From: an uncultured delta proteobacterium | GTDB taxonomy: Bacteria; Myxococcota_A; Polyangia; Polyangiales; Polyangiaceae | DNA: 64,000 nt | NCBI GenBank assembly: GCA_963839305.1 | Contig: CAWIUL010000011.1 | Coordinates: 2,441,561-2,505,560 of the forward strand | Direction of reading: 5' to 3' | Shown: positions 1-64,000 of the stretch, in pieces | How positions within the stretch are numbered: the stretch's first letter is position 1 | Layout: every line of letters starts with the position of its first letter | The notes under the pieces: generated by a model | Databases searched by the model: none | Told to the model about the DNA's origin: nothing | The model's input: the letters and a program-made list of their open reading frames with translations, nothing else | Position numbers and translations under genes: made by a program

Positions 1-881
1 TTCAAGAGAGGGAAATTCAGGGCCTTTCGTTGCCCGATCCACGCCTCGGCGACGCCGCGCGCGAGGCCGCGCACGCGCCCGATGAAGCGCGCGCGCTCGG
101 TCACGCCGATGGCGCCGCGCGCGTCGAGCACGTTGAACTGGTGCGCCGCCTTGGTGACGAAGTCGTACGCGGGCAGGACCAATTTCTTCTTCGGATCTTC
201 GGAGAGCGCGAGCAGGCGCTTGCACTCTTTCTCGTAGTGATCGAACGCGGCGAAGTGCGCGGGCACGTCGGCTTGCTCGAAGTTGTACGTGCTCCACTCC
301 CACTCGGCGCGTTTGTCGAGATCGCCGTAGCGGACGCCAGGCGCGTACATCACGTCGTACATGTCGTCGACGTCCTGGAGGTACATCGCGATGCGCTCGA
401 GGCCGTACGTGAGCTCGCCGCTCACGGGCTTGCACTCGAAGCCGCCGACTTGCTGGAAGTAGGTGAACTGGGAGATCTCGAGCCCGTCCATCCACACTTG
501 CCAGCCGAGGCCCCACGCGCCGAGCGTCGGCGACTCCCAGTCGTCTTCGAGGAAGCGGAAATCGTGCTCTTCGGCGTCGGTGCCGAGCGCGCGCAGCGAC
601 TCGACGTACTGATCTTGGATGTCGAGCGGCGACGGCTTCAGGATGACTTGGAACTGGTGATACTGCTGCACGCGGTTCGGGTTCTCGCCGTAGCGGCCGT
701 CGGTGGGTCGACGCGAGGGCTCGACGTACGCGACGTTCCACGGCTCGGGACCGAGCGCGCGCAAGAACGTCGCCGGGTTGAACGTGCCCGCGCCGACCTC
801 GGAGTTGTACGGCTGGAGCACGAGGCAGCCGCGCTTCGCCCAGAACGACTGCAGGCCCAGGATGATGTCCTGAAAATACAT
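1..881 (-). CDS. glyQ: glycyl-tRNA synthetase alpha subunit (GlyQ), 3' end truncated by window start
   Basis: Minus-strand translation from ATG ~881 gives [25 protein letters not shown]...[10 protein letters not shown]..., a canonical GlyQ sequence. The ORF track missed it because it runs off the window; plus-strand ORF 30..890 is its antisense. Confidence 0.85.
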
Positions 882-912
882 GGCGGCTGAAAGCTACACC
901 ACTCCGCGGCGA

Positions 913-61055: not shown

Positions 61056-61301
61056 ATGGCACGAGCGGAGAATGCAGCCATGATGAACCGAGTCTTTCGA
61101 TCCTCGCGCAGCAATCTCGCCGGGCACCGCGAAGCGATCGACGCCGATTGGGAGCGGGTGAGCGAGAGCGCGCCGTGCCCCATCTGCGGCGGTGACTCGC
61201 TCTGCCGGAAGCATGCGGTGGATGCGTTCGTGTCGTGCACGCGTCGGCCGTCGGAGTGGCCGCTGATCGACGGTGGGTGGCTTCACCGCGTCCGCTCGTG
61301 A
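61056..61301 (+). CDS. small Cys-containing protein (CPICGG...C...C, zinc-ribbon-like)
   Basis: 81-aa ORF with non-junk composition. Its stop overlaps the next ATG (TGATG). Confidence 0.35.
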   Translation: MARAENAAMMNRVFRSSRSNLAGHREAIDADWERVSESAPCPICGGDSLCRKHAVDAFVSCTRRPSEWPLIDGGWLHRVRS

Positions 61302-64000
61302 TGCCGAGCGAGGCTCGCGAGGAGACCGGCTGCCCGGGCTTGGTCTCGAGCGCGCAGTGGGACGAACCCGAAGCGCTCCGCGGTGAGCTCCATACCGCCG
61401 CGCGCCTGTCCGAGCACGCGATCGAGCTCGCGCACGCGCACGGCGCGCCGTCGCTCCGCGTACCGCCGGGTCCGCTACGCAAGCGCTTCGCGGATGCGCG
61501 GCGTCGAATCGACGAGGCGTACGAAGTCCTCTCTCGCGCGCTTCGAACGAGCCGCGAGCCCTCGCCAGCCGAAGAGTGGCTGCTCGACAACTCGCACGTC
61601 GTCGAAGAGCAGATCCGCGAGGTCGAAGAGGATCTTCCGTGGGGCTACCTCGTCGAGCTTCCGCGGCTCGCGAGCGGCGCGATGCGCGGCTACCCGCGCG
61701 TCTACGGGCTCTGCCTCGACTACCTGAGGCACACCGACGCGCGCGTCGAGCTCCAGACGCTCTCCGATTTCGTGATCGCGTACCAGACCGTCCACCCGCT
61801 CACGATCGGCGAGCTCTGGGCCGTTCCGATCATGCTTCGCGTCGGCCTCGTGCTGGCGGTGGGCGCGCTCGCGTCGTCCGAGGCGAGCGAGAGCGAGCGC
61901 GAGCGGGGCTCGGCTTGGGCCGCGCGGATCATCGAGCACGGACAGGCGCCCGAGCAGATCAGCGAGGTGCTCGCGGAGCTCGAGAGAAACGATCGCCCCA
62001 TCACGGCGCCGCTGCTCGTCGAGCTCTTGCGGCACCTGCGCGAGCACGAGGCGCCGCTCGGAATCGCGACCGACTGGGTCGTCGCGCAGGCCGCGAAGAT
62101 GGGCACGACGCCCGAGGACCTCACGCGCCGCCAGCACCTGCGCCGCGCGGCCGATCAGGTGTCGGTCGGCAACTCGATCACGAGCATGCGCGCGATCGCG
62201 GCGCTCGACTGGAACGCGTTCTTCGAGCGCGCGAGCCGGGTCGAGGCCATTCTCCGCCGCGATCCCGTGAGGGCCTATGCCGCGATGGACATCGCCACGC
62301 GCGATCAATACCGGCACGCGGTCGAGCGCCTCGCGCGACGATCGAAGAAGAGCGAAATCGACGTCGCGGACACGGCGCTGACGCTCGCGGAGGTCGCGAA
62401 GGATCACATCGGCTTTTGGCTGATCGGCGACCGGCGCATCGAGCTCGAGAAGAGCCTCGGCTACCGCGCGCGCTTCGACGAGCTGATCGCGCAGCCGATC
62501 GTGCGGCATCCCTCGACGTTCTACCTCGGGACGATCGTGTTCTTCGCGGGCGTGGCGTGCGGGCTCGCGGCGCTCGTCGGACGCGAGCGCCTCCCGCCAG
62601 TGCCGCTCGCGCTCCTGATCGCGCTCTTCTCGCTGCCTGCGACCGAGATCGCGATCGCGATCGTCAACAGCCTCGTCGTCGCCGTCGTCCCGCCGCGCGT
62701 CCTTCCGAAGATGGCGCTCGAGTCGTCGATCCCGCCGGAGCACCGCACGCTCGTCGTCGTCCCCGCGATCCTCGACGGCCCCGAGACCGTGCGCGATCTG
62801 CTCGAGTCCCTCGAGATCCGCTCGCTCGCGAACCTCGAGAAGAACCTGCATTTCGCGCTCCTCACGGACTTTCGCGACGACGAGAGCGAGCGCAGGCCCG
62901 AGGACGAAGCGCTGCTCGCGCTCGCGCGCGACGGGATCGCCGAGCTCGACGCGCGCTGGGAGCACCCGGGCGAGCACCGCTACGTGCTCCTCCACAGGCG
63001 GCGCGTGCGAAACGAATCGCACGACCGCTGGATGGGCTGGGAGCGCAAGCGGGGCAAGCTCGAGGAGCTCAATCGACTGCTCCGCGGCGCGACCGACACG
63101 ACGTTCGACGTGGTCACCGCTCCCAAAGAGCTCCTCGAGAGCGTGCGCTTCGTCATCACGCTCGACGCGGACACGGAGCTCCCGCGCGACACGGCGCGCA
63201 AGCTCGTCGCGACGCTCGCGCACCCGCTCGTGAGGCCGAGGCTCGATCGCGCGGGCCGGCGCGTCGTGAGCGGGCACGGCGTCATCCAGCCGCGCGTCGG
63301 GACGGCCCCCGTGAGCTCGCGGCGTACGCGCTACGCGCGCGTGGCTTCGCCGCCGACGGGGATCGATCCGTACACGACCGCGGTGTCGGATGTTTATCAG
63401 GACCTCTTCGGCGAGGGATCCTTCGTCGGAAAGGGCATCTACGACGTCGATGCGTTCGCCGCCACGCTCGGCGGCCGCGTCCCCGAGAACGCGCTCCTCA
63501 GCCACGACTTGTTCGAGGGGATCTTCGCGCGGAGCGCGCTCGCCAGCGACATCGAGGTGCTCGACGAGCAGCCCTCGTCCTACGAGGTGGCCGCGGCGCG
63601 CCTCCACCGGTGGATCCGCGGCGACTGGCAGATGGTCGTCGTCGCGCTGCGCTTCGCGCGTGAGCTTCGCGCGCTCGACGCGTGGAAGATCGCCGACAAC
63701 CTGCGGCGGAGCGTGCTCCCGCTCGCGCTCGTCGTCTCGTGCGTCGTCGGGTGGCTCGAGGGCCCGCTCGTCGGGGCGTTCGTCACCGCCACGCTCGTCG
63801 TGACGCTCGCCACGTCGGTCGTCGCTCGCACCGTGATCGCCATGAGCCGCGCGCGAACCTCGCGCACCTTCGTCGGCGCGATCGGCGACGACCTCGCGTC
63901 GAACCTGCGCCAGTCGCTCGTGCATGGGATCTTCTTGTTCGACGAGGCGCTGCTCGCGGTCGACGCCATCGCGCGCACGATCCACAGGCTCGCGATCAGC
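61301..64000 (+). CDS. cyclic beta-1,2-glucan synthase (GT84; NdvB/ChvB/Cgs family), N-terminal ~900 aa; continues past window end
   Basis: This third frame was missed by the ORF track because no stop occurs in the window. EEWLLDNSHVVEEQIREV, LTIGELWAVPIMLRVGLV, multiple TM helices, DRWMGWERKRGKLEELNRLLRG, ITLDADTELPRD, GHGVIQPRV, RLHRWIRGDWQ. Confidence 0.8.
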   Translation, partial: MPSEAREETGCPGLVSSAQWDEPEALRGELHTAARLSEHAIELAHAHGAPSLRVPPGPLRKRFADARRRIDEAYEVLSRALRTSREPSPAEEWLLDNSHVVEEQIREVEEDLPWGYLVELPRLASGAMRGYPRVYGLCLDYLRHTDARVELQTLSDFVIAYQTVHPLTIGELWAVPIMLRVGLVLAVGALASSEASESERERGSAWAARIIEHGQAPEQISEVLAELERNDRPITAPLLVELLRHLREHEAPLGIATDWVVAQAAKMGTTPEDLTRRQHLRRAADQVSVGNSITSMRAIAALDWNAFFERASRVEAILRRDPVRAYAAMDIATRDQYRHAVERLARRSKKSEIDVADTALTLAEVAKDHIGFWLIGDRRIELEKSLGYRARFDELIAQPIVRHPSTFYLGTIVFFAGVACGLAALVGRERLPPVPLALLIALFSLPATEIAIAIVNSLVVAVVPPRVLPKMALESSIPPEHRTLVVVPAILDGPETVRDLLESLEIRSLANLEKNLHFALLTDFRDDESERRPEDEALLALARDGIAELDARWEHPGEHRYVLLHRRRVRNESHDRWMGWERKRGKLEELNRLLRGATDTTFDVVTAPKELLESVRFVITLDADTELPRDTARKLVATLAHPLVRPRLDRAGRRVVSGHGVIQPRVGTAPVSSRRTRYARVASPPTGIDPYTTAVSDVYQDLFGEGSFVGKGIYDVDAFAATLGGRVPENALLSHDLFEGIFARSALASDIEVLDEQPSSYEVAAARLHRWIRGDWQMVVVALRFARELRALDAWKIADNLRRSVLPLALVVSCVVGWLEGPLVGAFVTATLVVTLATSVVARTVIAMSRARTSRTFVGAIGDDLASNLRQSLVHGIFLFDEALLAVDAIARTIHRLAIS

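What the first reader, a model, noticed from the sequence alone, without database searches (positions are those of the whole stretch)
1..64000. Unusually high density of frame-disrupted genes (at least 15 in 64 kb)
Frame breaks were found by following conserved motifs across frames in these genes: the giant TPR locus (3), GH31 (2), the large lipoprotein (1), the poly-Pro OM protein (1), the tsaE 3' end (1), the kinase-AAA-TPR protein (3), the vWA lipoprotein (3), the 56888 lipoprotein (1), the small membrane protein (1), and probably the ctaA 3' end. Several occur in short homopolymers or in a poly-Pro (CCG/CCT) run. This is the signature of uncorrected indel errors in a long-read or pyrosequencing assembly. 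Genuine pseudogenisation at this density inside housekeeping genes (tsaE, ctaA) is unlikely.
Basis: inference. Interest (0 to 1): 0.5.

Follow-up and report, generated by a model that had tools for sequence, protein, structure and literature searches.

The report
Assembly indel errors breaking many genes
Seventeen genes or gene segments in this 64-kb stretch of a soil myxobacterial (Polyangiaceae) genome are knocked out of frame by single-base insertions or deletions; these look like uncorrected long-read sequencing errors rather than real gene decay, so the finding is a data-quality warning and not biology.

Summary
In relatives each broken gene is one uninterrupted ORF. Examples are the giant TPR protein (4034-4138 aa), GH31 (801 aa at 90% identity), a 1061-aa protein and a 1335-aa kinase-AAA-TPR protein.

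Every lesion is a single-base indel: 13 insertions and 4 deletions. There are no nonsense codons, no IS elements and no larger deletions. The repaired frames keep strong codon bias. Their dN/dS is 0.12-0.3, the same upstream and downstream of the breaks and the same as in intact neighbours.

With the same detector, five short-read-assembled relatives (107 kb) show no such breaks, against 14 in the window. Two of three related Nanopore-only MAG loci do show them; one has about 53 in 10 kb, with the same 3-4:1 excess of insertions. The window comes from a 3.65-Mb metagenome-type contig whose public gene calls are truncated.

The best explanation is unpolished long-read consensus error (confidence about 0.9). 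The reads were not available, so this is not proven. A link between break sites and GATC is only weak (P≈0.02, post hoc). Interest is low.

The parts
913..13059 (-). Giant TPR protein gene (~4047 codons once repaired), read in three frames in the window
   Evidence: Relatives L019, L021 and L022 carry single ORFs of 3695+ (partial), 4138 and 4034 aa, and JBBSFE carries one of 4047 aa. They align end to end at 73-80% identity with 0 in-frame stops and 3 insertions. The ~2600-aa homologues, including the isolate Paraliomyxa, also bridge the frames. The source's own gene call is only 1605 aa (P0122).
12687..12693 (-). Break 1: 1-nt insertion (GGATCGATCGC[A]GCGG on the gene strand)
8003..8004 (-). 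Break 2: 1-nt insertion (GCG[C]TCC)
3465..3472 (-). Break 3: 1-nt insertion in GCGATTTCCTGGC (relatives have GCGATCGCC)
24967..27377 (-). GH31 alpha-xylosidase-like gene, read in three frames
   Evidence: P0121 (801 aa, intact, 90-92% identical) aligns as aa 4-31, 32-227 and 228-801 in three frames. Pfam domains are split between frames. The source's gene call is 580 aa against ~800 aa in 100+ homologues.
27283..27284 (-). Break 4: 1-nt insertion (TTCGATC[C]TCGG)
26692..26694 (-). Break 5: 1-nt insertion (CA[A/G]CAC within KYTQ|HAGLPRPLPRW)
36728..39923 (-). 1061-aa conserved hypothetical ('large lipoprotein'), split into 482- and 628-aa ORFs
   Evidence: Homologues P0243-P0247 (994-1065 aa) align throughout at 72-83% identity with one insertion and 0 stops. 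The source's gene call is 596 aa (P0242).
38576..38577 (-). Break 6: 1-nt insertion (TCGGAT[T]CTCGCG)
45357..46426 (+). ~375-aa protein with a long poly-Pro run
   Evidence: Six relatives have intact ORFs of 346-379 aa.
45888..45889 (+). Break 7: 1-nt deletion inside the CCN (poly-Pro) run (CCTCCTC-GCCCCCG)
46433..46926 (+). tsaE. The body is intact (Pfam TsaE 4.5e-30), but the frame never reaches the expected TGA of the ATGA overlap at 46923-46926 and runs on for 963 codons.
46860..46923 (+). Break 8 (probable): 1-nt deletion in the tsaE tail; position not resolved
   Evidence: all five relatives end tsaE with a TGA (in L001, inspected at the nucleotide level, as an ATGA overlap with the next gene's ATG). 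In the window the TGA of the ATGA at 46923-46926 lies in the -1 frame.
49413..53408 (+). Ser/Thr kinase-AAA_16-TPR gene (1335 aa in relatives), read in frames 3, 1, 2, 3
   Evidence: Seven relatives have a single ORF of 1306-1344 aa at 75-88% identity, with 0 stops and three insertions. The Pkinase HMM is split 1-66 | 70-252.
49668..49670 (+). Break 9: 1-nt insertion (GCG[C]CCG)
50620..50629 (+). Break 10: 1-nt insertion (GACAAGCGGC region)
50785..50789 (+). Break 11: 1-nt insertion (CT[C]GATCGG or within GATC)
54494..55898 (+). vWA lipoprotein gene. The ORF looks open, but the conserved sequence uses three frames.
   Evidence: VWA_2 HMM positions 38-106 are found only in the frame of 54952-55269. 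Seven relatives support one insertion plus one deletion. The start MEMARRLL is in a different frame from FFALALGVAAC.
54502..54510 (+). Break 12: 1-nt insertion just after the start codon (GGCGCGCCG)
54965..54966 (+). Break 13: 1-nt insertion (GGA[C]TCA; relatives have GGATCG, GGCTCT or GGTTCG)
55186..55190 (+). Break 14: 1-nt deletion (GTGCA-CCC), which restores the frame shifted by break 13
55880..55911 (-). Break 15 (probable): 1-nt deletion in the ctaA 3' tail. The conserved end ...EALAGSPP and its stop at 55851-55849 lie in another frame, and the ORF overruns to 55680.
56852..57581 (+). ~240-aa lipoprotein ('56888 lipoprotein')
   Evidence: Four relatives have intact ORFs of 238-272 aa.
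57179..57185 (+). Break 16: 1-nt insertion (GCGCGGCAAG)
59663..59665 (-). Break 17: 1-nt insertion (TCG[C]CAG) in the small membrane protein gene (~59508-59840). It separates ...PPSRPIVMSLPS from YELDSERKSSPP...VGVAWFICIVALGQ.

Best explanation
The frame breaks are errors in the deposited consensus sequence, not mutations in the organism. The window comes from a very long (3.65 Mb) contig of an uncultured Polyangiaceae/Polyangiales genome. It was most likely assembled from noisy long reads (Nanopore-only metagenome assembly is the best guess) without short-read polishing. Where local read support was thin or mixed, the consensus gained a base (13 times) or lost a base (4 times). Each such slip throws the downstream codons out of frame, so gene callers report truncated or split ORFs.

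Shown: the breaks exist; all are ±1 nt; relatives are intact; selection signatures are unchanged.

Inferred: the cause is technical, and the platform is Nanopore.
For: 1. All 17 lesions are single-base indels. There are 0 in-frame stops over about 11,000 repaired codons of the broken genes. If a quarter of real inactivating lesions were nonsense, P(0 of 17) would be about 0.008 (the assumed fraction is from my own knowledge).

2. dN/dS in the repaired frames is typically 0.12-0.30 (range 0.03-0.49). It does not rise downstream of the breaks (giant TPR 0.215, 0.217, 0.287; kinase 0.03, 0.12, 0.20, 0.12). It equals that of intact neighbours at 0.12-0.28. Codon-bias (GC3) signal stays strong through all segments.

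3. A 72-codon vWA segment between a +1 and a -1 slip is conserved, with a Pfam VWA_2 match, only in the frame that the open ORF does not use.

4. Controls with the same detector give 0 no-stop frame switches in 107 kb from five relatives whose record names point to short-read or hybrid assemblies, against 14 in the window (P≈1e-6). Four full-length JGI metagenome copies of the giant gene are uninterrupted ORFs.

5. Two of three related Nanopore-only MAG loci show the same defect. L009 has about 53 one-nt indels (42 insertions, 11 deletions), L002 has 1 and L007 has none robust. The window's 13:4 spectrum is indistinguishable from L009's (Fisher P=1.0).

6. The source contig is 3,654,228 bp. 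Its public gene calls are truncated: 580 vs ~800 aa, 1605 vs ~4047 aa, 596 vs ~1061 aa.

7. Housekeeping or widely conserved genes are hit (tsaE, ctaA, the giant TPR protein conserved across Myxococcota).

8. Break density is patchy: 11 of 17 lie in 13.9 kb. L009 is patchy too. This fits local coverage or consensus problems.

9. Literature: Nanopore-only consensus sequences retain frameshifting indels, and bins below about 40x need polishing (PMC9262707). The MFD long-read MAGs were made with Flye plus one round of Medaka, with no short-read polishing (PMC12313526).
Against: No reads or coverage data could be examined, so nothing here directly shows that the bases are wrong.

The window's own sequencing platform is not known; only relatives are identified as Nanopore MAGs.

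The dN/dS test cannot exclude very recent real mutations.

The indels are not in long homopolymers, which is the classic long-read failure mode, and some are not in any homopolymer.

One of the three related Nanopore MAG loci (L007) is clean, so the platform alone does not predict the defect.
Confidence: 0.9

Rival explanations
1. The pseudogenes are genuine and very recent. The lineage has a mutator phenotype or is under relaxed selection (for example a shrinking population or a newly restricted lifestyle), and it has just acquired many real ±1 frameshifts.
For: The sequence as deposited does carry the breaks. dN/dS cannot exclude events that occupy the last few percent of the divergence time. 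Mismatch-repair defects do produce ±1 indels (own knowledge).
Against: There are no nonsense codons, IS insertions or larger deletions among the 17 lesions. Insertions exceed deletions 13:4, opposite to the usual bacterial deletion bias (own knowledge). Essential or core genes are hit (tsaE, ctaA). Three separate hits fall in single genes. The same spectrum occurs in an unrelated Nanopore MAG and is absent from short-read assemblies. None of the indels is in a long homopolymer, where mutator indels concentrate.
Confidence: 0.05
2. The errors are systematic and tied to a methylated motif (Dam-type GATC) that disturbs the long-read signal. This is a specific sub-case of the artefact explanation and predicts that errors recur at GATC sites.
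For: Five of 15 well-placed breaks touch a GATC or restore one when a base is removed: GAT[T]C, GA[C]TC, GATC[C], CT[C]GATC, GATCGATCGC[A]. The single robust indel in L002 lies at AGATCC. Basecalling errors at methylation motifs are documented (PMC6591954, found through but not read in detail).
Against: GATC is extremely common here: 647 sites, or one per 99 nt. The null expectation is therefore already 1.8 of 15, and the enrichment is only P=0.024 and post hoc. Ten other breaks have no GATC. More than 640 other GATC sites show no detectable frame break. L009's errors show no obvious GATC preference on inspection (not formally tested).
Confidence: 0.15
3. The breaks reflect programmed recoding: ribosomal frameshifting or transcriptional slippage restores the full-length proteins in vivo.
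For: Full-length products would need exactly ±1 shifts at each site. The poly-Pro CCN run could in principle be slippery.
Against: Orthologues in all relatives examined (1-7 per gene) are in a single frame at every site, so no site is conserved as a recoding signal. The contexts are heterogeneous, with no shared slippery motif. Seventeen programmed sites in 64 kb would be without precedent.
Confidence: 0.01

Closest known systems
Frameshifting consensus indels in Nanopore-only (or otherwise unpolished long-read) bacterial and MAG assemblies, as measured by the IDEEL-type 'truncated protein' test (PMC9262707; PMC11649196)
   Same: The lesions are ±1-nt indels that fragment gene calls. The predicted proteins are much shorter than their homologues (0.40-0.72 of full length for the three source gene calls seen). 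The contig is very long. Density is patchy. Short-read assemblies lack the defect.
   Different: The classic description stresses homopolymers. Here most sites are runs of only 1-3 bases in a 69% G+C genome, and insertions dominate. The platform of this particular record is not documented in what I could access.
[quoted passage not shown]
   Same: They belong to the same family-level lineage and the loci are syntenic. L009 shows the same insertion-biased one-nt indel spectrum and patchy distribution.
   Different: L009 is far worse (about 1 indel per 180 nt over 10 kb) and L007 is clean. The window's assembly was not found among the GTDB species representatives (best hit 87% aa identity), so membership of that catalogue is unproven.
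Genuine mass pseudogenisation in decaying genomes (e.g. Mycobacterium leprae, Sodalis; own knowledge)
   Same: A high fraction of the genes is interrupted.
   Different: Those genomes show mixed lesions (nonsense codons, deletions, IS elements), relaxed dN/dS and eroded codon bias. None of these is seen here.

Membership tests
Long-read consensus indel artefact | Lesions are single-base insertions or deletions only, with no nonsense codons or structural lesions | tested here: met
   There are 17 of 17 ±1-nt lesions and 0 in-frame stops in the repaired frames.
Long-read consensus indel artefact | The repaired reading frames remain under purifying selection, with normal codon bias on both sides of each break | tested here: met
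   dN/dS is typically 0.12-0.30 (range 0.03-0.49), the same upstream and downstream and the same as in intact genes. The GC3 signal is continuous.
Long-read consensus indel artefact | The breaks are absent from accurate-read assemblies of relatives and present in same-technology assemblies | tested here: met
   There are 0 in 107 kb of short-read relatives and the giant ORFs are intact in 4 JGI contigs. L009 and L002 (Nanopore-only) have such indels. Only relatives were tested, not the same strain.
Long-read consensus indel artefact | Accurate reads from the same sample contradict the consensus at the break sites | not testable with these tools
   No reads or pileups were available.
Long-read consensus indel artefact | Errors are concentrated in homopolymers | tested here: inconclusive
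   Several sites extend 1-3-base runs (CC, TT, CCC) and one lies in the CCN poly-Pro run. Others are not in a homopolymer (GGA[C]TCA). None is in a run of 5 or more.
Genuine pseudogenes / genome decay | A mixture of lesion types (nonsense codons, larger deletions, IS insertions) | tested here: not met
   Only ±1-nt indels were found.
Genuine pseudogenes / genome decay | Relaxed selection (dN/dS rising towards 1) downstream of the first lesion | tested here: not met
   The test is blind to very recent events.
Programmed frameshift / recoding | The shift site and slippery motif are conserved in orthologues | tested here: not met
   All orthologues are in a single frame at each site.
Methylation-motif (GATC)-linked basecalling error | Break sites are enriched at the motif beyond its background frequency | tested here: inconclusive
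   5 of 15 against a null mean of 1.8, P=0.024, with the motif chosen post hoc. GATC occurs 647 times in the window.

The most novel reading that the evidence does not exclude
The single-base insertions are real mutations. Either this lineage has undergone a very recent burst of frameshifts (mutator or relaxed selection), or, more exotically, insertions are generated preferentially at or next to GATC sites (for example error-prone repair of nicks or breaks at a methylated or restricted motif).
Probability: 0.04. Interest if true: 0.5.

Novelty: not a real feature. Interest (0 to 1): 0.08.

Why it matters
The importance is practical. About one frameshift per 4 kb means a large share of the genes on this 3.65-Mb contig will be mis-called as truncated, split or fused. 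Examples are the 963-codon 'tsaE' ORF, and a vWA gene whose open ORF hides a scrambled 72-codon segment.

Any pseudogene count, gene-content comparison, completeness estimate or protein family built from this record will therefore be distorted. Protein databases already contain the truncated products (P0001, P0122, P0242).

It also shows that an ORF that stays open is no guarantee of a correct frame in high-G+C genomes. There is no new biology here.

Tried and rejected
1. The source contig could not be fetched. Exact-protein look-ups for a window protein and for P0001 returned nothing. The closest relative of GH31 (P0121, 90% identity) has no DNA on record, so only its protein could be aligned.

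2. Short blastn/MAFFT alignments around the breaks mostly failed at ~78% nt identity. I replaced them with a codon-level dynamic-programming alignment.

3. Candidate extra breaks were rejected:
- ~28932 is a 1-nt difference upstream of a GTG start, not a break in the gene.
- ~60860 and ~61309 lie in unconserved N-terminal or upstream sequence and are supported by one relative only.
- ~20387 (HisKA gene 3' end) has a complete HATPase_c match in one frame.
- ~21447 (upstream of the ferritin domain) and 53409-53957 (IVP gene) have no evidence of a split domain.
- The two no-stop switches flagged in L017 look like detector false positives (for the one at 16917 the upstream gene's stop lies 3 nt outside the search margin).

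4. The GATC/methylation idea looked striking by eye. It shrank to P≈0.02 once the very high GATC density was taken into account. A second apparent motif (CAAG at 3 sites) was not pursued, because it was chosen post hoc.

5. Programmed frameshifting was rejected because the orthologues are in frame.
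Full report
**What the window is.** The sequence is 69% G+C with very strong third-position GC bias. Its proteins are closest to uncultured Polyangiaceae/Polyangiales (Myxococcota) MAGs, at up to 87% aa and about 78% nt identity and with conserved gene order. Three proteins identical to window ORFs (P0001, P0122, P0242) are on record from NCBI and ENA on a single contig of 3,654,228 bp. The contig itself could not be fetched.

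**Checking the observation without homology.** I trained a codon-usage model on the window and ran a 7-state Viterbi segmentation. It finds 14 places where the coding signal changes frame on the same strand with no stop codon nearby. The same detector finds none in five relatives' loci whose record names point to short-read or hybrid assemblies (L001, L003, L004, L008, L013; 107 kb). It finds 6 in L009, 1 in L002 and 0 in L007, all Nanopore-only Microflora Danica MAGs. It also flags 2 in L017, which look like detector false positives (for the one at 16917 the upstream gene's stop lies just outside the search margin). If rates were equal, the probability that all 14 events would fall in the window is about 1e-6.

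**Checking with homology.** Pfam shows domains split between frames:
- Pkinase HMM positions 1-66 and 70-252 lie in different frames.
- The GH31 N-terminal domain and the TIM barrel lie in different frames.
- TsaE sits at the head of a 963-codon ORF.
- VWA_2 lies in a frame other than the open ORF.

I then wrote a protein-to-DNA aligner that allows frameshifts and ran it with orthologues from relatives. The results are:
- **Giant TPR gene (913-13059, minus strand).** Relatives carry single ORFs of 4034-4138 aa in JGI metagenome contigs and of 4047 aa in JBBSFE. They align end to end at 73-80% identity with no in-frame stop and three 1-nt insertions, at 12687-12693, 8003-8004 and 3465-3472. The ~2600-aa homologues, including one from the isolate Paraliomyxa miuraensis, bridge the last two breaks as well.
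- **GH31.** P0121 (801 aa, 90-92% identical, intact) aligns in three frames, with insertions at 27283-27284 and 26692-26694.
- **1061-aa protein.** There is one insertion, at 38576-38577.
- **Poly-Pro protein.** There is one deletion in the CCN run, at 45888-45889, supported by six relatives.
- **Kinase-AAA-TPR.** There are three insertions, at 49668-49670, 50620-50629 and 50785-50789, supported by seven relatives.
- **vWA lipoprotein.** There is an insertion at 54965-54966 and a compensating deletion at 55186-55190, both supported by seven relatives. A third insertion lies just after the start codon (54502-54510).
- **238-aa lipoprotein.** There is one insertion, at 57179-57185.
- **Small membrane protein.** There is one insertion, at 59663-59665.
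- **Two probable 3'-end cases.** In tsaE, the expected TGA of the ATGA overlap with the next gene lies in the -1 frame. In ctaA, the conserved C-terminal EALAGSPP and its stop lie in another frame, and the ORF overruns by about 170 nt.

Other candidates were rejected (see Tried and rejected).

**Nature of the lesions.** All are single-base indels: 13 insertions and 4 deletions. No nonsense codon occurs in about 11,000 repaired codons, and there is no IS element or larger deletion. Several insertions duplicate a neighbouring base (GATC[C], GAT[T]C, GCG[C]CC). One deletion is in the poly-Pro CCN run. None is in a homopolymer of 5 or more bases, and some are not in a homopolymer at all (GGA[C]TCA).

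The density is uneven: 11 of the 17 breaks lie between 45.9 and 59.7 kb (binomial P≈2e-4, with the region chosen post hoc).

**Selection.** I computed Nei-Gojobori dN/dS between the window, in its repaired frames, and relatives. It is typically 0.12-0.30 (range 0.03-0.49) for the broken genes and does not increase downstream of the breaks. For the giant gene the three segments give 0.215, 0.217 and 0.287. For the kinase gene the segments give 0.03, 0.12, 0.20 (a linker) and 0.12. Intact neighbours give 0.12-0.28.

Old pseudogenes are therefore excluded. The breaks are either evolutionarily instantaneous or not real. The 72-codon vWA segment between the compensating slips is conserved only in the frame that the deposited ORF does not read.

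**Technology link.** L009 is a Nanopore-only MAG (Flye plus one round of Medaka, with no short-read polishing; PMC12313526). It carries about 53 one-nt indels within about 10 kb, 42 insertions and 11 deletions, and almost none in the following 11 kb. That is the same insertion bias and patchiness as in the window (Fisher P=1.0). L002 has one such indel. L007 has none that is robust.

The literature states that Nanopore consensus sequences retain indels that cause frameshifts in gene calling, and that bins below about 40x coverage need short-read polishing (PMC9262707). It also shows that a few hundred residual differences in a high-G+C genome (798 bp in the example given) add hundreds of spurious CDSs (PMC11649196).

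The source's own gene calls are truncated in the expected way: 580 vs ~800 aa, 1605 vs ~4047 aa and 596 vs ~1061 aa.

**A lead that weakened.** By eye, many insertions sit in or next to GATC. After counting, GATC turns out to occur 647 times in the window. The enrichment is 5 of 15 breaks against a null mean of 1.8, with P=0.024, and the motif was chosen post hoc. It remains a testable lead for a methylation-linked basecalling error, and nothing more.

**Conclusion.** The most likely cause is uncorrected single-base errors in a long-read (probably Nanopore-only, metagenomic) consensus (confidence about 0.9).

A genuine recent burst of frameshift mutations cannot be formally excluded without reads. 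It is disfavoured by the lesion spectrum, the genes hit, the multiple hits per gene, and the contrast between short-read and long-read assemblies of relatives. Programmed recoding is excluded because the orthologues are in frame.

This is a data-quality finding of low scientific interest, although it matters to anyone who uses this record.

Noticed in passing
window 30962-33007 (+): A 681-aa protein with Pfam MVP_shoulder (8e-28) and Vault_3. It matches solved major vault protein structures (E=4e-26; query residues 237-638 against MVP 352-788). At the syntenic position the relative L017 has a CarboxypepD_reg gene instead. This is a bacterial vault-protein homologue in a myxobacterial MAG.
   Followed up: partly
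window ~53400-54460: About 1 kb that is absent from relatives L001, L002 and L004. It carries two convergent small genes of the 23S_rRNA_IVP (four-helix-bundle) family.
   Followed up: no
window ~17.7-22.0 kb: A block encoding a sigma-54 activator, a HisKA/HATPase kinase, a response regulator and a ferritin-like protein. It lies between the DCC1-like and Metal_hydrol genes, which are adjacent in relative L017. It is a lineage-specific insertion, or a deletion in the relative.
   Followed up: no
L009:1400-11150 (MFD01872.bin.2.281): This public Nanopore-only MAG locus has about 53 one-nt indels relative to intact orthologues (about 1 per 180 nt, 42 insertions and 11 deletions). The next 11 kb of the same contig is almost clean. 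This is a strongly localised consensus failure in a GTDB species representative.
   Followed up: partly
L002:~7937-7943 (MFD05705.bin.2.131): A single 1-nt insertion (context GGAAAGAGATCCGG) splits the orthologue of the 813-aa gene in this otherwise clean Nanopore MAG.
   Followed up: no
whole window: GATC occurs 647 times (one per 99 nt), against 513±19 in dinucleotide-preserving shuffles and about 180 from base composition alone. Five of 15 well-placed break sites touch or restore a GATC (P≈0.02, post hoc).
   Followed up: partly
window 913-13059 (-): The giant TPR protein is about 4047 aa here and in the closest relatives. Most Myxococcota homologues are about 2600 aa and align only from about 8996 onward, so this clade has an N-terminal extension of about 1400 aa.
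   Followed up: no
window 54494-55898 (+): Because out-of-frame stops are rare at 69% G+C, a +1/-1 pair of slips leaves the ORF open. The vWA gene would pass as intact in any ORF-based check although 72 codons are scrambled.
   Followed up: yes
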